Below, one piece after another: positions 57,675 to 62,537 of a stretch of DNA of 64,000 nucleotides (the first letter of the stretch is position 1; every line of letters begins with the position of its first letter). The DNA is taken from UHGV virus genome UHGV-0240317; one strand, given 5' to 3'. Position numbers and translations under genes: made by a program. A model generated the notes under the pieces. It searched no databases and was not told the DNA's origin. It saw only the letters and a list, made by a program, of their open reading frames with translations. This DNA is from a virus.

Positions 57675-57760
57675 AGAGGTCTGAAGTTGTGCCGCTAACT
57701 CAACTCCGTGGAATTTGTTACGGTCTTCAGTTGACACCAGCGGTCTTTCACTTGACCTCT
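57675..57760 (-). ncRNA. structured non-tRNA element in tRNA cluster (7-bp closing stem AGAGGTC/GACCTCT, inner 6-bp stem CTGAAG/CTTCAG)
   Basis: No T-loop/CCA; contains GAAGACCGT box related to the repeated elements at 59928-60707. Confidence 0.3.
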
Positions 57761-57764
57761 GAAT

Positions 57765-57841
57765 TGGTGCTGCTCACAGGACTCGAACCTGCATTTCCAT
57801 CCTTACAAGGGATGTGTAATAGCCAATTATACGAAAGCAGC
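57765..57841 (-). tRNA. tRNA-Thr (anticodon TGT)
   Basis: Anticodon stem-loop CATCC-CTTGTAA-GGATG; T-arm GCAGGTTCGAGTCCTGT; CCA. Confidence 0.65.
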
Positions 57842-57847
57842 ATTGTT

Positions 57848-57922
57848 TGGAGCATCCAGAGGGAATCGAACCCTCAACCTCAGTTTGGAAGACTGTAATT
57901 TTCCCGTTTAAACTATGGATGC
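57848..57922 (-). tRNA. tRNA-Gly (anticodon TCC)
   Basis: Anticodon loop CTTCCAA; T-arm GAGGGTTCGATTCCCTC; CCA. Confidence 0.7.
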
Positions 57923-57928
57923 ACTAAT

Positions 57929-58004
57929 TGGTGGAGAAGCAGGGAATTGAACCCTGTACTTAAGTTTGCAAAACTTATGTTTTAACCATGTAAACTACAT
58001 CCCC
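57929..58004 (-). tRNA. tRNA-Ala (anticodon TGC)
   Basis: Anticodon stem-loop TAAGT-TTTGCAA-ACTTA; T-arm CAGGGTTCAATTCCCTG; CCA. Confidence 0.65.
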
Positions 58005-58010
58005 AATGTC

Positions 58011-58086
58011 TGGTACAGGTGGAGGGAATTGAACCCATCGTCTTACTGATTAAGAGTCAGCCGCATAACCATTTTGCTACACCTGC
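58011..58086 (-). tRNA. tRNA-Lys (anticodon CTT)
   Basis: Anticodon loop CTCTTAA; T-loop TTCAATT; acceptor GCAGGTG/CACCTGT; CCA. Confidence 0.6.
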
Positions 58087-58093
58087 ATTAATT

Positions 58094-58170
58094 TGGTACA
58101 CCTAGAGAGATTCGAACTCACACTGAGCAGATTCTAAGTCTGCTGCCTCTACCAATTGGGTTATAGGTGC
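58094..58170 (-). tRNA. tRNA with anticodon TAG (Leu-type anticodon but class-I-like length)
   Basis: Anticodon stem-loop GCAGA-CTTAGAA-TCTGC; T-loop TTCGAAT; isotype uncertain. Confidence 0.5.
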
Positions 58171-58171
58171 A

Positions 58172-58624
58172 TTAAATCAAATGTCTTGAGAATTGACTGT
58201 GGCAATTTGGACACAAGAACCGAAGATTCTCTTTTCTATCATCTAACCAGTTCTCGTTAATGTGGTCAACATCAAGAGTTAGAGGATTACCCAACCAATC
58301 AGGTAACTGACCACATTTAGAGCACTTGTATTCGACACCAGAGGCTATTAAAGCTCTTCTTAGTTGTGAAGACCTCGCTCTTTCACCAGATTCACGTAGA
58401 ATTAGGATTTCTTCAGGCTTTCTTTTTGGTACAGTTTTAATCTTACCAGCCTTTTGTCCGAGAAAATGAGAAGTGTCTATTTCAAACTTTTCTATAACAC
58501 GCTTTAGATGTGACTGAGAACCACCTGCTGGTTTTCTCCCAAGCTTAATAAGTACTTCTCTGAATGATACTGAATCCTTTACTAAAGGTTCAAGAATATC
58601 TTTAGTCAAACTGCTGCGTGCCAT
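58172..58624 (-). CDS. HNH endonuclease (free-standing, inside tRNA cluster)
   Basis: 150 aa; C-terminal HNH/zinc motif CSKCGQ...LDVDHINENW...NLRFLCPNCH. Confidence 0.7.
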   Translation of the reverse strand: MARSSLTKDILEPLVKDSVSFREVLIKLGRKPAGGSQSHLKRVIEKFEIDTSHFLGQKAGKIKTVPKRKPEEILILRESGERARSSQLRRALIASGVEYKCSKCGQLPDWLGNPLTLDVDHINENWLDDRKENLRFLCPNCHSQFSRHLI

Positions 58625-58894
58625 GTGTCAATCTCCCATTAAATCTTTTTAGAGAACTTCTAAGAACCTAAGCAACAAGGTTCCACAACAAGCTGTAATA
58701 ACCTTAGAAGCCCTCTAAAAAGACCTAAAAAGGTCTTTGCATAGTCTTGTTTAATCCGGTGACTAGAACCTTTGGAGAGCTTGATATTATCTCTTCTCCG
58801 TGACACCTACTAGGTGCTTTATCAGTGCGTACAACAATACACGCGGTATACCAAAGCAACATCCGAATGAAGCTTGGCTTTAAATCTTATTAGG

Positions 58895-58982
58895 CGGTAA
58901 GTAAAGGAGTCGAACCCTCACCGTATCTCTACAGTGGCAACAGTTTTCAAGACTGTTTGGCTGCCATTAGCCGCTACCTACC
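58895..58982 (-). tRNA. tRNA-Ser (anticodon TGA), class II
   Basis: 88 nt; anticodon stem-loop ACAGT-CTTGAAA-ACTGT; long variable arm; T-arm GAGGGTTCGACTCCTTT; CCA not encoded. Confidence 0.6.
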
Positions 58983-58995
58983 CCTAATAAGACTT

Positions 58996-59078
58996 TGGCA
59001 TGGGACGGAGGATTTGAACCCCTTTGAAACGGTTTTGGAGGCCGTTGCTCATGCCTTAGAGTCTTAACATCGTCCCAT
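58996..59078 (-). tRNA. tRNA-Trp-like (anticodon CCA) with enlarged D-loop
   Basis: Perfect acceptor ATGGGAC/GTCCCAT, T-arm GGGGTTCAAATCCTCC, anticodon loop CTCCAAA on a 4-bp stem; 83 nt. Confidence 0.45.
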
Positions 59079-59220
59079 ATTATAATTCGAAGCTTACCGT
59101 ATTATCTCAACACTGTAAAGCCCCTTCTCAGATTATTTACATGTTCTGGAAAACATGAGATACAGACCACCTCCCTACAGGAAGACCCGCTTAGGTCGTC
59201 TAAGTAATCTGCTAACTAAT

Positions 59221-59297
59221 TGGCACACCCTACAGGATTCGAACCTGTAACTAACGATTTAGAAGACCGTTGCTCTATCCAATTGAACTAAGGGTGC
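59221..59297 (-). tRNA. tRNA-Arg (anticodon TCT)
   Basis: Anticodon stem-loop ACGGT-CTTCTAA-ATCGT; T-arm ACAGGTTCGAATCCTGT; CCA. Confidence 0.7.
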
Positions 59298-59544
59298 ATT
59301 AATCTTTAAAGACTCTCTGAGAAAGCCCTTAAAGATGCCCACCTTATTAATCATACCGTGGGCTAGTACGCCAAATTCTTCGATGAGGGATTGGAAGACC
59401 TCACTGGTGTTTAGCCTATCAAGCTACTGCCAGAAAAACATTGTCGTTTGCATTTATTTTAAATTTGCAAAATAGACGCTACGCAACGAAAACTAAGGTT
59501 ACTATAAAGTAGTCACATCTCAATGTCAACAACTTTATTGAAAG

Positions 59545-59619
59545 TGGTTGTAGGTGAGGGTATCGAACCCTCTTCTAACGGTTATCAGCCGTTTGCATTA
59601 CCATTTATGCTAACCCACA
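59545..59619 (-). tRNA. tRNA-Ile (anticodon GAT)
   Basis: Anticodon stem-loop AACGG-CTGATAA-CCGTT; T-arm GAGGGTTCGATACCCTC; CCA. Confidence 0.7.
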
Positions 59620-59621
59620 AT

Positions 59622-59698
59622 TGGAGGTTCAGATGGGAATCGAACCCACATTCATAGGGCTTATGAGACCCTTGCATTACCTTATCTGCGACTGAACC
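59622..59698 (-). tRNA. tRNA-Met (anticodon CAT)
   Basis: Anticodon loop CTCATAA; T-arm GTGGGTTCGATTCCCAT; perfect acceptor GGTTCAG/CTGAACC. Confidence 0.65.
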
Positions 59699-59702
59699 AT
59701 AT

Positions 59703-59778
59703 TGGTAGAAGTGGAGGGATTCGAACCCATCGCCTGTCAGATTAAAAGTCTGCCGCATCACCATTCTGCTACACTTCC
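59703..59778 (-). tRNA. tRNA-Lys (anticodon TTT)
   Basis: Anticodon loop CTTTTAA; T-loop TTCGAAT; CCA. Confidence 0.6.
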
Positions 59779-59927
59779 ATTAAATTATCTTTGTAGATAA
59801 GCTACCCAGACTTGCTTAAGGTCTGTAGCGATGTGTATTGTTGGGTTTAAATCTAGAATTTACCCTTTCACCCTTTGTGGTCGCATACTCACAGGTAAGC
59901 TTAATAACTTATCTACAAAGATAATTA

Positions 59928-60060
59928 CCAGACCGTTGTTTAACATCTTAAGTGCTACCATTACACCAACTCGACATCTGCCGAGTGAAGGAATCGAACC
60001 TTCTCCTTTTCTTTACCGGAGAAATAGATTGTTTAAAGTTTGCTGTAAACGGTCTTCTGT
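59928..60060 (-). ncRNA. structured RNA element (repeat-family member 3) containing a tRNA-like module without anticodon arm
   Basis: Closing stem ACAGAAGACCGTT/AACGGTCTGG; interior has canonical T-arm GAAGGTTCGATTCCTTC, 7-bp acceptor-like hairpin ACTCGGC-agat-GTCGAGT and D-arm-like GTGT-AATGGTA-GCAC. Confidence 0.35.
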
Positions 60061-60072
60061 AAATTTGTTGAG

Positions 60073-60151
60073 CCAGACCAAGTTTTAAAATTTTTTCAAA
60101 ATTAAATTGGCTTGAAAATATCATACGTACTTGCTGTAATTGGTCTTCTGC
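60073..60151 (-). ncRNA. structured RNA element (repeat-family member 4)
   Basis: Plus-strand CCAGACC...TTGCTGTAATTGGTCTTCTGC; same terminal boxes as members 1-3. Confidence 0.3.
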
Positions 60152-60211
60152 TCCTTTAAAGAATACTCGTAAGAACTCTTTAAGGGAGGGGCTAAATAGC
60201 CCTCTCAAAAT

Positions 60212-60289
60212 TGGCGGTTACGAAGGGATTTGAACCATCATCATCTCCCGTGACAGGGGAGTATTTTAACCAAATTAAACTACATAACC
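60212..60289 (-). tRNA. tRNA-Asp (anticodon GTC)
   Basis: Anticodon stem-loop CTCCC-CTGTCAC-GGGAG; T-loop TTCAAAT; CCA. Confidence 0.7.
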
Positions 60290-60294
60290 TTTAT

Positions 60295-60382
60295 TGGTGT
60301 GCCGTGTAGGAGTCGAACCTACCGAGTCTCAATGACAAGGGATTTACAGTCCCCACCGCTACCATCTACGGGATAACGACAC
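60295..60382 (-). tRNA. tRNA-Tyr (anticodon GTA), class II
   Basis: 88 nt; anticodon stem-loop GGGGA-CTGTAAA-TCCCT; long variable arm; T-arm GTAGGTTCGACTCCTAC; CCA. Confidence 0.7.
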
Positions 60383-60391
60383 ATTTAAATT

Positions 60392-60468
60392 TGGCGGTTA
60401 GTCAGGGATTCGAACCCTGTGCCATTCGCTTAACAGGCGACCGCACATACCTTATGTGCTTCCTAACC
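60392..60468 (-). tRNA. tRNA-Asn (anticodon GTT)
   Basis: D-stem GCAC/GTGC; anticodon loop CTGTTAA; T-arm CAGGGTTCGAATCCCTG; CCA. Confidence 0.7.
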
Positions 60469-60479
60469 TTAATACATTG

Positions 60480-60541
60480 CCAGACCGTGTTTTTTCTTTT
60501 ATCCGCAAAAAGTATTTTGTTGCTGTAAACGGTCTTCTGTA
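60480..60541 (-). ncRNA. structured RNA element (repeat-family member 1)
   Basis: Plus-strand CCAGACCG...TTGCTGTAAACGGTCTTCTGT; on minus strand directly follows tRNA 3' end. Confidence 0.3.
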
Positions 60542-60545
60542 AATT

Positions 60546-60621
60546 TGGAGGCGGGTGCAGGAGTCGAACCTGCCGATACCATGCTAATGAGACATGTGAG
60601 ACGCCCTTTCTCTATACCCGC
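60546..60621 (-). tRNA. tRNA-Met-type (anticodon CAT), second copy
   Basis: Anticodon stem-loop CATGT-CTCATTA-GCATG; T-arm GCAGGTTCGACTCCTGC; could be initiator or Ile-lysidine type. Confidence 0.55.
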
Positions 60622-60633
60622 AATTCTTAATGA

Positions 60634-60707
60634 CCAGACCAAATCTCTTCTTTGTCCGATTTACCTTCAGATGAATAAGATTAAGTTTGCTGTAATTGGT
60701 CTTCTGT
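60634..60707 (-). ncRNA. structured RNA element (repeat-family member 2)
   Basis: Plus-strand CCAGACC...TTTGCTGTAATTGGTCTTCTGT. Confidence 0.3.
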
Positions 60708-60713
60708 CAAAAC

Positions 60714-60791
60714 TGGCGTTCCAGAAGGGATTTGAACCCTCAGATATCCACTTTGAAAGAGTGGTGACTTTACCATTTTGTCTACTGGAAC
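60714..60791 (-). tRNA. tRNA-Glu (anticodon TTC)
   Basis: Anticodon stem-loop CCACT-CTTTCAA-AGTGG; T-arm GAGGGTTCAAATCCCTT; CCA. Confidence 0.7.
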
Positions 60792-60798
60792 ATTAATT

Positions 60799-60875
60799 TG
60801 GTCTCTGTTGGAGGACTTGAACCTCCGGCCTTACCGCCCCAAACGGAACGCTCTACCAAGCTGAGCTAAACAGAG
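60799..60875 (-). tRNA. tRNA-Pro (anticodon TGG)
   Basis: D-arm GCTC-AGCTTGGTA-GAGC; anticodon loop TTTGGGG; T-arm GGAGGTTCAAGTCCTCC; CCA. Confidence 0.75.
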
Positions 60876-61040
60876 ATAAACTTTTCAAACTCTATGTAAC
60901 CACTTTAACATTATTTTTTAGTGGTTGTCAAGAACTTTTTTAAAATATTTTTCAGTATCTTAGAAAAGCTCTCATTTCGTTTCTATGTAGAACATATTAA
61001 AGGGTATTAAACGCATTGTCAATACCCTTTTTAAAACTTT

Positions 61041-62456
61041 TTACCAGATGTAACGGTCAATCATTACTGCTCTGAGCATTACGCTGGTTGGGTCAAACTT
61101 CTCACCACCAAGCAGAGCTTTTAAAGTGGCTGGAGAGAACCCTGATACTATTGCTACACCATTATCCTTAACAGACACTTCGCAAGTACCACTACGGTTT
61201 GCTAAGTACCAGAATACCAGTTGTGGCATTTCGTATCCAGCTTTTTTGTACTTACTACGAATTACTTCAAAGTTTGTACGACCATTTGCACCGTCAACCT
61301 GATTAAACTCCATATCAGAGAAGATGATAAGCTTACTTGGCATATCTTTCTGAGTCAAGTTGTTTCTCTTACCTGTCTCAAGGATGCGGTCAAAAGCTGC
61401 TTGTAAGTTAGTTGAACCGTATTCAACGTGTCGCATCACCTGACGATGACGGTTTAGTAAATCACCACTCAGTTCGATGAAGTGAGGGTTTGTTGAATAG
61501 ACCATTAACTCATTTTTAAAGCAACCTGTATTGCGTTCTGCTACATACAAGGCAAGTGATACACCAATATCAAGAGCAGTAATGGAGCCAAATTTAACCC
61601 AAGACATTGAGTTTGAAACATCAGACATACATAGAATGTTTTCACCCTCTGCCATCCAGTTTGGTAGTGCTTTCCACTGCTCATTAGCAACATCTGCATT
61701 GCCATACTTAACAGATTTAATCACATCGTATGGGTAAACAGCACCAGCATTAATCTTAGTCTCACCCTTTGATAAGGACTCAATGTAAGCTTTGTAGCGT
61801 TCTCCATCTTTACGGTTAAACAGTTTTTGGTAACGTGCAGCAGCAAGTGAAGGAATCTTACTGTAGTCAATCTTGCCGAACTCATTAGCAGAGATTTTTT
61901 GCTCAACTGTATCAGATAGTGCAGACAAAAGTGTGCGGTACTCTTTCTCACTCAAGTTGGCAAACTTGCAGAAACGTTTTACAAACTGCTTATGACGTGG
62001 TTTGACTCGTGGTAACCACTTAGCTACCAAACCTGCTGTTGCAGGGTCTAGTAATGCTGCTTCTAAATGTTTGAAGGCATCTGTCTCGAAACGAGTACCT
62101 ACGAAGATTTTGAAGTCATCAAAACGACCAAGTTCTGCAATCTTATCCATAATGCGAAGAACCTGTGTAGGCTCTAAAACTTTATCTTCACTTGCTTGAA
62201 GCAAAACAGTTCTGAAGGCTTTACGCTCACCCATACCTTCTCGTACATCTCGCATATGAAGCAAAATACGAACTGCAACATCAACATCCTCACGCAAAGC
62301 TTTGTAGAACAAGTCTGGTAAGATTTCTACATTACTACGGCTTGAACCAGCAGCTTTGTAAAAGTCTACAAGAGCAGACATTGATGAAGTATGGTTTACA
62401 GCACCATTTTCAGTTCGACCTGCATGAAGGTGCGCATGTTTAAATAATTCGCTCAT
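61041..62456 (-). CDS. vWA-domain protein with MIDAS motif; candidate Ro60/TROVE-like or DUF2828-type RNA-associated protein
   Basis: 471 aa; helical N-terminal region then ILCMSDVSNSMSW (DxSxS) ... LIIFSDMEFNQ pattern that I recall from Ro60 vWA domains; ATG 62456. Confidence 0.45.
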   Translation of the reverse strand: MSELFKHAHLHAGRTENGAVNHTSSMSALVDFYKAAGSSRSNVEILPDLFYKALREDVDVAVRILLHMRDVREGMGERKAFRTVLLQASEDKVLEPTQVLRIMDKIAELGRFDDFKIFVGTRFETDAFKHLEAALLDPATAGLVAKWLPRVKPRHKQFVKRFCKFANLSEKEYRTLLSALSDTVEQKISANEFGKIDYSKIPSLAAARYQKLFNRKDGERYKAYIESLSKGETKINAGAVYPYDVIKSVKYGNADVANEQWKALPNWMAEGENILCMSDVSNSMSWVKFGSITALDIGVSLALYVAERNTGCFKNELMVYSTNPHFIELSGDLLNRHRQVMRHVEYGSTNLQAAFDRILETGKRNNLTQKDMPSKLIIFSDMEFNQVDGANGRTNFEVIRSKYKKAGYEMPQLVFWYLANRSGTCEVSVKDNGVAIVSGFSPATLKALLGGEKFDPTSVMLRAVMIDRYIW

Positions 62457-62537
62457 ATTTTACTCTCTTCTCTCATTTGTTGTTTGATGTGACAGACTTT
62501 AGAACAACTTTGTAGAGTCTGTCAACACCTTTTAAAA

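What the first reader, a model, noticed from the sequence alone, without database searches (positions are those of the whole stretch)
57675..62456. vWA/MIDAS protein next to a family of conserved structured RNA elements: possible phage Ro60/Y-RNA-like system
Four intergenic elements in the tRNA cluster (60480-60541, 60634-60707, 60073-60151, 59928-60060) share the same terminal boxes, reading on the plus strand CCAGACC...(G)TTTGCTGTAA(A/T)(C/T)GGTCTTCTG(T/C). On the tRNA-coding strand these ends can pair (ACAGAAGACC with GGTCTGG, with a bulge) around variable interiors of 40-100 nt. A fifth related element lies at 57675-57760. About 1 kb away is a 471-aa protein with a vWA MIDAS motif (DVSNSM) whose architecture recalls Ro60/TROVE-vWA proteins. 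In bacteria Ro60 orthologs are encoded next to Y RNAs, some of which carry tRNA-like domains; T4 also has small stable RNAs in its tRNA cluster.
Basis: partly seen in the sequence, partly recalled or inferred. Interest (0 to 1): 0.85.

Follow-up and report, generated by a model that had tools for sequence, protein, structure and literature searches.

The report
Phage Ro60-like protein with Y-like RNAs
A Felix O1-type phage encodes a ring-shaped Ro60-like RNA-binding protein and, right next to it inside its tRNA gene cluster, four small structured RNAs of a previously undescribed family that accompanies this protein in very different phages and closely resembles the enigmatic Class I RNAs of social amoebae.

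Summary
The window is a Felixounavirus genome. The four elements are real (19-nt box: 4 hits vs 0.05 expected). On the tRNA strand each reads 5'-AGACC(GU/AA)-UUACAGCAA-variable-(AC/UU)GGUCU-GG-3'. The 471-aa neighbour is DUF2828+DUF7788 with a complete MIDAS. It has no TROVE sequence hit, but its confident model matches Ro60 over its full length (E 3e-8, TM 0.6).

The same design (7-bp covarying stem, invariant CAGCAA, variable loop, 3' G) lies beside homologous genes in Aeromonas, Vibrio, Campylobacter, Listeria, Enterococcus, Staphylococcus, Cronobacter and Mycobacterium phages. A covariance model tested on 65 loci it was not built from gave 49 hits. All 49 were on the gene's strand and 37 lay within 500 nt of the gene. 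A T4 control gave none.

The long element carries a permuted tRNA-like module (T arm, acceptor hairpin, D arm), as bacterial YrlA Y RNAs do. The "fifth element" is not a member.

The Ro60 likeness of this protein (Bas63 gp130, an anti-Ppl factor) was already published, with a guess that Y RNAs hide among the tRNAs. The RNA family itself appears to be new.

Unexpectedly, the only Rfam family that matches the elements is Dictyostelium Class I RNA, below threshold but with the same motif and layout. RNA expression and binding to the protein are untested.

The parts
61041..62456 (-). Ro60-like protein gene (471 aa). It has an N-terminal helical-repeat domain (DUF2828) and a C-terminal vWA domain (DUF7788) with MIDAS DVSNSM...T349...D381. 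It is the orthologue of the gene upstream of the tRNA array in Felixounaviruses (Bas63 gp130).
   Evidence: Pfam DUF7788 1.1e-42 and DUF2828 5e-29. PHROG 850 'RNA-binding protein'. Model pLDDT 86.5. Best PDB fold matches are Ro60 1yvr, 2i91, 9kop and 2nvo. Invariant MIDAS residues.
62496..62525 (-). Sigma-70-like promoter upstream of the Ro60-like gene (TTGACA-18-TAAAGT).
   Evidence: Consensus scan only.
60994..61022 (-). Sigma-70-like promoter (TTGACA-17-TAATAT) just downstream of the protein gene, reading into the tRNA / Y-like RNA array.
   Evidence: A paralogous copy of this box was found as direct repeat D19.
60902..60931 (-). Second sigma-70-like promoter (TTGACA-18-TAAAGT with TG) upstream of tRNA-Pro.
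60634..60707 (-). Short Y-like RNA 'B', between tRNA-Glu and tRNA-Met. 5' stem AGACCAA at 60696-60702, box UUACAGCAA at 60687-60695, 3' stem UUGGUCU plus GG at 60634-60642.
   Evidence: Covariance-model hit of 41.4 bits, E 3.6e-7. Rfam RF01414 19.7 bits.
60480..60541 (-). Short Y-like RNA 'A', between tRNA-Met and tRNA-Asn. 5' stem AGACCGU at 60529-60535, box at 60520-60528, 3' stem ACGGUCU plus GG at 60480-60488.
   Evidence: Covariance-model hit of 52.5 bits, E 5.4e-10. Rfam RF01414 23.9 bits.
60073..60151 (-). Short Y-like RNA 'C'. 5' stem AGACCAA at 60140-60146, box at 60131-60139, 3' stem UUGGUCU plus GG at 60073-60081.
   Evidence: Covariance-model hit of 43.9 bits, E 8.5e-8.
59928..60060 (-). 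Long YrlA-like RNA 'D'. It has the same closing stem (60048-60055 with 59930-59937) and box (60040-60047). Inside is a permuted tRNA-like module: V hairpin 60001-60024, T arm 59987-60003, acceptor-like hairpin 59969-59986, D arm 59952-59966.
   Evidence: Rfam tRNA 22 bits over the T-arm half. The acceptor hairpin is fully compensated between the window (ACUCGGC/GUCGAGU) and Moogle (ACCCUUC/GAAGGGU).
59779..59927 (-). 149-nt long hairpin directly downstream of element D. It may be a related structured RNA. It contains a mini hairpin CAGAC-CUUAAGCAA-GUCUG (59806-59825) that looks like a collapsed copy of the family motif.
   Evidence: Inverted repeat I2. Fold z-score -6.1, and the Moogle counterpart folds the same way (z -5.7) with a different stem sequence. 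The family model does not detect it, so membership is unproven.

Best explanation
The four elements are genes for small non-coding RNAs of a Y-RNA-like family that partners the adjacent Ro60-like (DUF2828/DUF7788) protein.

Inferred steps. The elements are transcribed with the tRNAs from the two promoters just downstream of the protein gene. They are released from the precursor by the tRNA-processing nucleases: RNase P cuts at the next tRNA's 5' end, and trimming runs back to the closing stem. The closing 7-bp stem, the single-stranded (U)UACAGCAA box immediately 3' of its 5' strand, and the 3' G form the constant module that the protein recognises. This corresponds to the conserved stem and GGUCCGA/CGAA motif of canonical Y RNAs. 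The variable interior is the effector module. In the long RNA it is a tRNA mimic in YrlA order (T arm, closed acceptor hairpin, D arm) that could dock tRNA-binding enzymes or nucleases. In the short RNAs it is an A-rich loop. The resulting RNP would act on host or phage RNA metabolism (tRNA surveillance or repair, or tethering or blocking of an exoribonuclease as in Ro60-Y RNA-PNPase) and so help the phage against host defences.

Shown here: the RNA structure, by covariation; strand-specific and position-specific linkage to the gene across phyla; the Ro60-like fold of the protein.

Shown by others: the Bas63 orthologue counters the Ppl defence.

Inferred: transcription and processing, direct binding, and the downstream activity.
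For: Reality of the elements.

RNA-level helix. Within the window the paralogues differ by two compensated pairs, GU/AC against AA/UU. Moogle has G.U and U.G wobbles, which pair only on this strand. Across 32 elements from 11 phages, 98.7% of cells are paired, all 7 pairs covary and 0/500 shuffles reach the observed score. Slid-partner controls give 28-41% paired.

Linkage to the gene. Every one of 10 diverse annotated phage loci with a homologous gene has 1-7 elements on the gene's strand, mostly abutting it, including loci with no tRNAs nearby (LeBron, Staphylococcus phage).

Independent test. Model R2 on 65 IMG/VR loci that were not used to build it (proteins 39-46% identical) gave 49 hits at E<=0.1. 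All 49 were on the gene strand, they fell in 38 loci, and 37 were within 500 nt of the gene. Covariation was again 7/7 pairs. The rest of the 64-kb window has no hit below E 0.1. The T4 tRNA region, which includes rnaC/rnaD, gives nothing (best 13.8 bits).

Some phages have a single copy in the gene's 5' UTR, as expected for a site bound by the protein.

Protein. Ro60 fold, conserved MIDAS and many invariant arginines, weak vWA_Ro60 hits in 8 of 36 homologues, and BFVD matches that bridge to TROVE phage proteins.

The long elements share T arm, acceptor hairpin and D arm with covariation, and the LeBron copy hits Rfam YrlA.

Neighbourhoods contain RtcB, RNA ligases and a CCA-adding enzyme.

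Literature. Bas63 gp130 is Ro60-like, sits upstream of the tRNAs and counters Ppl (PMC11482910). The YrlA architecture is described in PMC4201824.
Against: There are no expression or binding data for these RNAs.

Rfam Y_RNA and YrlA do not match the window's elements. The canonical Ro-binding motif (GNCGAA/CGAA) is absent. The protein has no TROVE sequence signal.

gp130 alone, expressed from a plasmid or inserted into T7, which lacks these RNAs, is enough to overcome Ppl. The RNAs are therefore not needed for that phenotype.

27 of 65 test loci had no model hit. Several of these hold variant copies, but Aeh1-type T4-like phages show none beside the gene.

The seed elements were chosen for complementarity, so the first covariation count is partly circular.
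Confidence: 0.75

Rival explanations
1. The RNAs are made and structured as described but act without binding the neighbouring protein. For example, they could be decoys or sponges for a host factor: an anticodon nuclease, a tRNA-modifying enzyme, PNPase or an RNA chaperone. The gene linkage would then reflect a shared pathway, not a physical complex.
For: The long RNA is a tRNA mimic. gp130 works against Ppl without the RNAs. The neighbourhoods are tRNA and RNA-repair regions.
Against: The constant part of the RNA (stem plus CAGCAA) is conserved from Actinobacteria phages to Campylobacter phages, whose hosts share few specific RNA-binding factors. The one constant companion is the DUF2828 gene, often within 100 nt and always on the same strand. 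Single copies in the gene's own 5' UTR fit binding by the gene product.
Confidence: 0.13
2. The elements are cis-acting signals. They could be processing or stability sites for the tRNA precursor, or translational operators through which the protein controls expression, rather than free-standing small RNAs.
For: In the window they sit between tRNAs. In some phages one copy lies in the 5' UTR of the gene. Two promoters and a hairpin flank the array.
Against: In LeBron and the Staphylococcus phage, tandem copies lie downstream of the gene with no tRNAs present. Copy numbers of 3-7 with highly variable interiors, and the tRNA-like modules, are not expected of simple cleavage sites. The window's copies are not in any 5' UTR. 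An operator role in a subset of phages is compatible with the main explanation.
Confidence: 0.08
3. The elements are DNA-level repeats: miniature inverted-repeat mobile elements, homing-endonuclease scars or protein-binding palindromes in a recombination-prone tRNA region.
For: They have terminal inverted repeats with variable interiors. HNH endonuclease genes lie in the cluster.
Against: 49 of 49 independent hits are on one strand relative to the gene. G.U wobble pairs would be A.C mismatches on the other strand. An asymmetric single-stranded box is invariant while the stem sequence changes freely. tRNA-like modules read only on this strand.
Confidence: 0.02

Closest known systems
Bacterial Ro60 (Rsr) with YrlA/YrlB Y RNAs (Salmonella, M. 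smegmatis; Chen et al. 2014, PMC4201824)
   Same: A ring-plus-vWA protein is encoded next to several small RNAs on the same strand. One long RNA has a T arm, closed acceptor hairpin and D arm held by a 5'/3' closing stem, and there are shorter RNAs without that module. A short conserved motif sits near the 5' end next to the stem. There is an association with RtcB and RNA repair genes.
   Different: The protein belongs to DUF2828/DUF7788, not TROVE, and is shorter (471 aa). The RNA motif is (U)UACAGCAA instead of GNCGAA. The RNAs are embedded in a phage tRNA array. The Rfam YrlA model does not reach its threshold (no hit in the window, 39.8 of 69 bits in LeBron).
Bas63 gp130 (PhageMaP preprint, PMC11482910)
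   Same: Same protein family and position: a Felixounavirus gene directly upstream of the tRNA array. It is reported as structurally Ro60-like and as a counter to the Ppl defence, and the authors guessed that some 'tRNA genes' might be Y RNAs.
   Different: That work identified no RNA. Here the candidate RNAs are specific intergenic elements, not annotated tRNAs, and they form a family conserved far beyond Felixounaviruses.
Thermus phage phiLo phiRo60 with Yrl1/Yrl2 (PMC12135203; PDB 9kop)
   Same: A phage Ro60-type ring protein with two adjacent Y-like RNAs. Binding was shown by EMSA and cryo-EM, and the complex attenuates host PNPase. 9kop is among the best fold matches (E 5.8e-8).
   Different: phiLo uses the CGAA motif, and its protein is called a TROVE/Ro60 homologue. 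The fold alignment shows only 16% identity, and the RNA family is different.
Dictyostelium Class I RNAs (Rfam RF01414; Kjellin et al. 2021, PMC7919456)
   Same: A short covarying stem joins the 5' and 3' ends, with a conserved G near the 5' end. A single-stranded box CCUUACAGCAA lies directly after the 5' strand (window: GUUUACAGCAA or AAUUACAGCAA). The invariant phage positions CAGCAA include the positions invariant in all dictyostelids (C6, C9, A10, A11). The interior is variable and A-rich. The 3' end is ...CUG(U). Lengths are about 50-65 nt. RF01414 is the only non-tRNA Rfam family that repeatedly hits the elements, and it hits nowhere else in the sequences scanned.
   Different: All scores (14-32 bits) are below the gathering score of 41.5. 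The Class I RNAs are eukaryotic, individually transcribed genes with a DUSE promoter. Their known binder is the RRM protein Rnp1A/CIBP. It could not be tested here whether dictyostelids have a DUF2828 protein. The spacing between stem and box differs by one nucleotide.
T4 species 1 and 2 RNAs (rnaC, rnaD) in the tRNA cluster
   Same: Small stable non-tRNA RNAs co-transcribed and co-processed with phage tRNAs.
   Different: No sequence or structure match to the family model, and T4 has no DUF2828 gene at that locus.

Membership tests
Ro60 / TROVE protein family | TROVE (HEAT-repeat ring) domain detectable by sequence profile | tested here: not met
   No TROVE hit for the protein or for any of 36 homologues. 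A profile search of PDB sequences finds no Ro60.
Ro60 / TROVE protein family | Fold: helical-repeat ring followed by a vWA domain | tested here: met
   On a predicted model only (pLDDT 86.5, pTM 0.87). Full-length top matches are 1yvr, 2i91, 9kop, 1yvp and 2nvo, at E 3e-8 to 1e-6 and TM 0.5-0.63.
Ro60 / TROVE protein family | vWA domain with MIDAS (DxSxS...T...D) | tested here: met
   D279, S281, S283, T349 and D381 are invariant in 36 homologues. There are weak vWA_Ro60 Pfam hits in 8 of 36.
Ro60 / TROVE protein family | Binds Y RNA on the outer ring surface and misfolded RNA ends in the central hole | not testable with these tools
   Needs EMSA, RIP or a solved structure.
DUF2828 / DUF7788 (PHROG 850) | Pfam PF11443 and PF25043 above their gathering scores | tested here: met
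   101.8 and 146.2 bits. phrog_850 E 2e-180.
YrlA Y RNA (Rfam RF02553) | Score at or above the Rfam gathering score (69 bits) | tested here: not met
   No hit on the window at E<=10. The homologous long element of LeBron reaches 39.8 bits, E 2.9e-5.
YrlA Y RNA (Rfam RF02553) | 5'/3' closing stem that encloses, in order, a V region, a T stem-loop, an acceptor-like stem-loop and a D stem-loop | tested here: met
   Element D and six homologues show it. The T arm, acceptor hairpin and D arm are predicted with 10 of 16 pairs compensated.
YrlA Y RNA (Rfam RF02553) | GNCGAA(N)G motif near the 5' end | tested here: not met
   It is replaced by the invariant CAGCAA.
YrlA Y RNA (Rfam RF02553) | Encoded within 4 kb of the Ro60 gene and on the same strand | tested here: met
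   The elements lie 334-1113 nt from the gene's stop codon on the same strand. In the independent loci 49 of 49 hits were on the gene strand.
Dictyostelium Class I RNA (Rfam RF01414) | Score at or above the Rfam gathering score (41.5 bits) | tested here: not met
   Window: 23.9, 19.7 and 14.1 bits. Related phages: 25.7-31.9 bits.
Dictyostelium Class I RNA (Rfam RF01414) | Short terminal stem conserved in structure but not in sequence | tested here: met
Dictyostelium Class I RNA (Rfam RF01414) | 11-nt box CCUUACAGCAA directly 3' of the 5' stem strand | tested here: met
   9 of 11 positions are identical in three of the four window copies, and CAGCAA is invariant in 32 phage elements. The stem-to-box spacing is one nucleotide shorter.
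Dictyostelium Class I RNA (Rfam RF01414) | Dictyostelid origin, DUSE promoter, binding by Rnp1A/CIBP | not testable with these tools
   These are phage genes. The relevant question, whether dictyostelids have a DUF2828 protein that binds Class I RNAs, could not be addressed because the afdb50 library was unavailable.

The most novel reading that the evidence does not exclude
The phage RNAs and the Dictyostelium Class I RNAs are one family: the cognate small RNAs of a second, DUF2828-type lineage of Ro60-like proteins. On the protein side this lineage is shown here in phages and in giant viruses of protists; that cellular eukaryotes also have it rests on my memory of the Pfam family description and was not tested. 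If the reading is true, Class I RNAs, whose function has been unknown since 2004 and which were thought unique to dictyostelids, would be 'Y RNAs' of an unrecognised Ro-like RNP. The box UUACAGCAA would be its protein-recognition code.
Probability: 0.25. Interest if true: 0.92.

Novelty: new variant of a known kind. Interest (0 to 1): 0.78.

Why it matters
It assigns concrete partner RNAs to a protein family found in 710 of the 50,697 phage records searched by tblastn, among them relatives of Felix O1, KVP40, Listeria Pecentumvirus phages (LMTA-34), large Staphylococcus and Enterococcus phages, Campylobacter phages and cluster L mycobacteriophages. These records annotate the protein only as 'hypothetical', 'vWFA' or 'RNA-binding protein'.

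It defines a new, easily searchable non-coding RNA family with a different recognition motif from canonical Y RNAs. That widens the Ro60/Y RNA paradigm to a second protein lineage.

The protein is already known to defeat a bacterial defence (Ppl) and to be transferable to T7. Knowing its RNAs therefore makes the mechanism directly testable and is relevant to engineering therapeutic phages.

The unexpected match to Dictyostelium Class I RNAs gives a specific, cheap hypothesis for a long-standing orphan RNA class.

Tried and rejected
- Rfam Y_RNA and YrlA on the window: no hit even at E<=10.
- Sequence search of the protein and of its family profile against PDB: only noise.
- MAFFT alignment of the natural elements misplaced the 3' strands. 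I therefore trimmed each element to 42 nt anchored on CAGCAA, built model R1 from those, and built model R2 from R1's hits.
- The fifth element (57675-57760) is rejected as a family member.
- T4 rnaC/rnaD were considered as relatives and rejected.
- The MITE or DNA-palindrome reading is rejected on strand asymmetry and wobble pairs.
- Whether Dictyostelium encodes a DUF2828 protein, and whether the Class I pull-down protein DDB_G0281243 is one, could not be resolved. The afdb50 library was unavailable, BFVD accessions cannot be retrieved as sequences, and literature searches found nothing.
- A literature search for Felixounavirus small-RNA data found nothing useful.
- Supplementary tables of Chen et al. 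2014, which list the 22 phages with YrlA, are not held. I therefore could not check whether any DUF2828-type phage was already in that list.

Full report
**What the window is.** Megablast places the region in the Felixounaviruses (Felix O1-like myoviruses, Ounavirinae) at about 95% identity to many Escherichia and Salmonella phages. ARAGORN finds 26 tRNA genes, all on the minus strand, between 55260 and 60875. Directly upstream in the direction of transcription lies a 471-aa ORF at 61041-62456(-).

**The observation.**
- The four elements exist as described. The 19-nt box TGCTGTAAWYGGTCTTCTG occurs exactly four times, against 0.05 expected and 0 of 100 shuffles. Each copy is preceded, 40-110 nt earlier on the plus strand, by CCAGACC.
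- On the tRNA strand they read 5'-ACAGA-AGACC(GU|AA)-UUACAGCAA-[variable]-(AC|UU)GGUCU-GG-3'.
- The helix that folding finds is AGACCGU/ACGGUCU in copies A and D and AGACCAA/UUGGUCU in copies B and C. The paralogues therefore already differ by two compensated base pairs.
- The fifth element (57675-57760) is a stable hairpin. It has no CAGCAA box, the family model does not detect it, it is nearly identical in Moogle and it is missing from a more distant relative. I do not count it as a member.

**The protein.**
- Pfam gives DUF2828 (residues 171-264) and DUF7788 (274-456), with no TROVE hit. PHROGs calls the family 'RNA-binding protein'.
- The MIDAS residues D279, S281, S283, T349 and D381, and a set of arginines in the helical half, are invariant in 36 homologues.
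- An AlphaFold model built on that alignment is confident (pLDDT 86.5, pTM 0.87).
- Its best PDB matches are all full-length Ro60 structures: Xenopus 1yvr (E 2.8e-8, TM 0.63/0.58), 2i91 and 1yvp, the phage 'Trove' structure 9kop, and Deinococcus Rsr 2nvo. Isolated vWA domains follow far behind.
- Sequence profiles do not see this relationship. The exception is weak vWA_Ro60 hits in 8 of 36 homologues.
- In BFVD the family extends to giant viruses of protists and connects to phage proteins annotated as TROVE or Ro-like.
- tblastn finds full-length homologues in 710 phage records. These include cluster L mycobacteriophages, where the gene is annotated 'Ro-like RNA binding protein'.

**Prior knowledge.** The PhageMaP preprint reports that gp130 of Bas63, which it describes as a Felixounavirus, is structurally similar to Ro60 and lies directly upstream of the tRNA genes. 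It counters the Ppl defence and is transferable to T7. [quoted passage not shown] No RNA was identified there. The searches I ran found no description of these elements, and Rfam 15 has no family for them.

**The RNA family beyond this phage.**
- Moogle (protein 84% identical) has the same four elements. Two substitutions give G.U or U.G on the RNA strand only. The acceptor-like hairpin of the long element is completely re-paired, ACUCGGC/GUCGAGU becoming ACCCUUC/GAAGGGU.
- Yersinia phage P778 (53% identical) has GGACUGU/ACAGUCC, GGAUUC/GAAUCC and GGACUC/GAGUCC stems followed by UUUACAGCAA or UAUUCAGCAA.
- I then wrote a simple scan for [stem]-N2-5-C[AC]GCAA-[loop]-[complement]. In every one of eight further annotated loci there were one to seven such elements, on the gene's strand and mostly abutting the gene. 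The phages infect Aeromonas, Vibrio, Campylobacter, Mycobacterium, Listeria, Enterococcus, Staphylococcus and Cronobacter. In two loci the nearest annotated tRNA is distant or absent (LeBron has none in the 13 kb fetched; the Staphylococcus phage has one about 2 kb beyond the elements).
- When the elements are anchored on CAGCAA, a 7-bp stem ends three nucleotides before the box in all 32 of them. CAGCAA is invariant, and the nucleotide after the 3' strand is G in at least 90%.
- On this alignment 98.7% of cells pair and all seven pairs covary. There are 100 double-change cells against 26 in shuffles (0/500). Sliding the partner by 1-3 columns drops pairing to 28-41%. Because I selected the elements for complementarity, this count is partly circular, so I set up an independent test.

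**Independent test.**
- A model built from the trimmed alignment (R1) recovered 21 natural elements at E<=0.011 and found nothing else in 206 kb. Those hits gave model R2.
- A viral-contig scan with the protein alignment returned 80 new loci.
- On the 65 loci whose proteins are only 39-46% identical to the window's (766 kb, both strands), R2 gave 49 hits at E<=0.1. All 49 were on the gene's strand, they fell in 38 loci, and 37 were within 500 nt of the gene. Again 98.3% of cells paired and 7 of 7 pairs covaried.
- A stricter regular-expression scan gave 60 hits on the gene strand, 8 on the other strand and 14 in shuffled sequence over both strands.
- Among the loci without a model hit, several have variants:
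  - a single short copy in the gene's 5' UTR;
  - a roughly 150-nt form with CUGCAA in phages with Bacteroidota-type promoters.

  Aeh1-type T4-like phages have none beside the gene.
- All 15 Felixounavirus and Mooglevirus loci carry the three short copies.
- T4's tRNA region, which has the classical rnaC/rnaD RNAs but no DUF2828 gene, gives no hit even with filters off.

**The long element is a YrlA-type tRNA mimic.** Element D and its counterparts in Moogle-like phages, LeBron, the Enterococcus phage and Cronobacter S13 share three features in this order inside the closing stem:
- a T arm with a GGUUCGAWUCC loop;
- a 7-bp hairpin in the position of a closed acceptor stem, in which 5-6 pairs are compensated;
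- a D arm with the GG loop (coordinates).

This is the arrangement described for YrlA (PMC4201824). The LeBron copy is picked up by Rfam YrlA at 39.8 bits (E 2.9e-5, gathering score 69). The window's copy is not. Canonical Y RNAs carry GNCGAA/CGAA, whereas this family carries CAGCAA.

**How it probably works.**
- Two sigma-70-like promoters lie between the protein gene and tRNA-Pro, and one lies upstream of the protein gene. These are consensus matches only.
- The elements are separated from the flanking tRNAs by 4-12 nt, so ordinary tRNA processing would release them. This step is inferred.
- The constant stem, box and 3' G would form the protein-binding module, and the variable interior the effector module.
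- Gene neighbourhoods elsewhere contain RtcB, RNA ligases, an HD phosphohydrolase and a CCA-adding enzyme. This fits the Ro60/RtcB RNA-repair context known in bacteria.
- The published anti-Ppl activity shows that the protein matters in defence conflicts. Because gp130 alone rescues T7, the RNAs are more likely to modulate or retarget the protein than to be required for that particular effect.

**An unexpected resemblance.**
- The only non-tRNA Rfam family that repeatedly matched the elements is RF01414, the Class I RNAs of Dictyostelium. It hit three of the four window copies (23.9, 19.7 and 14.1 bits), four Aeromonas-phage copies (25.7-29.8 bits) and two in the new loci (31.9 and 28.2 bits). 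It never hit anywhere else in about 135 kb scanned.
- All scores are below the gathering score of 41.5, so this is not membership.
- The shared design is nevertheless specific (PMC7919456):
  - a short covarying stem joins the ends, with a conserved 5' G;
  - the box CCUUACAGCAA follows immediately;
  - the interior is variable and A-rich;
  - the 3' end is ...CUG(U);
  - the length is about 50-65 nt.
- Class I RNAs were reported as unique to dictyostelids and have no known mechanism. A pull-down found Rnp1A/CIBP, GuaB, NdkC and the uncharacterised DDB_G0281243.
- DUF2828 proteins occur in giant viruses of protists. By my memory of the Pfam description they also occur in eukaryotes.
- I could not test whether dictyostelids have one, so common ancestry against convergence stays open.

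**Verdict.** This is a Ro60-like protein with a set of Y-RNA-like genes. The protein's Ro60 likeness is already published. The RNA family, its recognition motif, its breadth across phages and its likeness to Class I RNAs appear to be new. Expression, binding and function still have to be shown experimentally.

Noticed in passing
window 59779-59927 (-): A 149-nt region between element D and tRNA-Lys folds into a 24-bp-closed long hairpin (z -6.1). The Moogle counterpart folds alike with a different stem sequence. Inside is a mini hairpin CAGAC-CUUAAGCAA-GUCUG (59806-59825), which in Moogle is CAAACC-CUUUAGCAA-GGUUUG. It resembles a collapsed copy of the family motif.
   Followed up: partly
It is conserved in Moogle, absent from Yersinia phage P778, and has no CAGCAA box. 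Its function is unknown.
   Followed up: partly
window 58172-58624 (-): A 150-aa ORF with an HNH endonuclease motif sits inside the tRNA cluster and is probably a homing endonuclease. It is followed by a 26-nt-arm inverted repeat at 58639-58728.
   Followed up: no
window 59002-59076 (-): A tRNA-like sequence with a good T arm and acceptor stem that ARAGORN does not call (Rfam tRNA-Sec model 22 bits). It may be a degenerate or unusual tRNA with CCA in the anticodon region.
   Followed up: no
window 59298-59544 (-): A roughly 250-nt non-coding stretch is preceded by the best promoter match of the region (59529->59501, 11/12). It gives weak tmRNA and permuted-tmRNA Rfam hits (15-32 bits). ARAGORN calls a doubtful 'tmRNA*' at the equivalent place in Moogle (L001 10382-11130).
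   Followed up: no
L003 3494-3628 (Aeromonas phage 4_4572): A tRNA (49 bits) carries a 52-nt insertion in the anticodon loop that contains AGAUUCCUUACAGCAA. The complementary strand follows the tRNA's 3' end. This is a chimera of a tRNA and the Y-like element.
   Followed up: no
L007 4428-4979 and 1941-2039 (Listeria phage LMTA-34): A ROOL RNA (88.5 bits, just under its gathering score) and a drum RNA (50.2 bits, above its gathering score) lie in the same tRNA region as the Ro60-like gene, next to RtcB and RNA ligase genes.
   Followed up: no
L045, L034, L026/L027/L004 just upstream of the gene start; L046, L056, L063, L079, L086 just downstream of the gene: Variant forms of the element exist. 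One is a single 35-45-nt copy in the gene's 5' UTR, possibly an autoregulatory operator. The other is a roughly 150-nt form with CUGCAA and a second conserved box GGGUU(U)AGAAGUAAA in phages with Bacteroidota-type promoters.
   Followed up: partly
L010 7896-8138 (Cronobacter phage S13): Two over-long 'tRNAs' (121 and 113 nt, one annotated tRNA-OTHER) are annotated just upstream of the YrlA-like element. They may be further mis-annotated Y-like RNAs.
   Followed up: no
L075 9710-10201: An uncultivated phage with the Ro60-like gene also encodes a bona fide tmRNA (87 bits) about 2 kb downstream.
   Followed up: no
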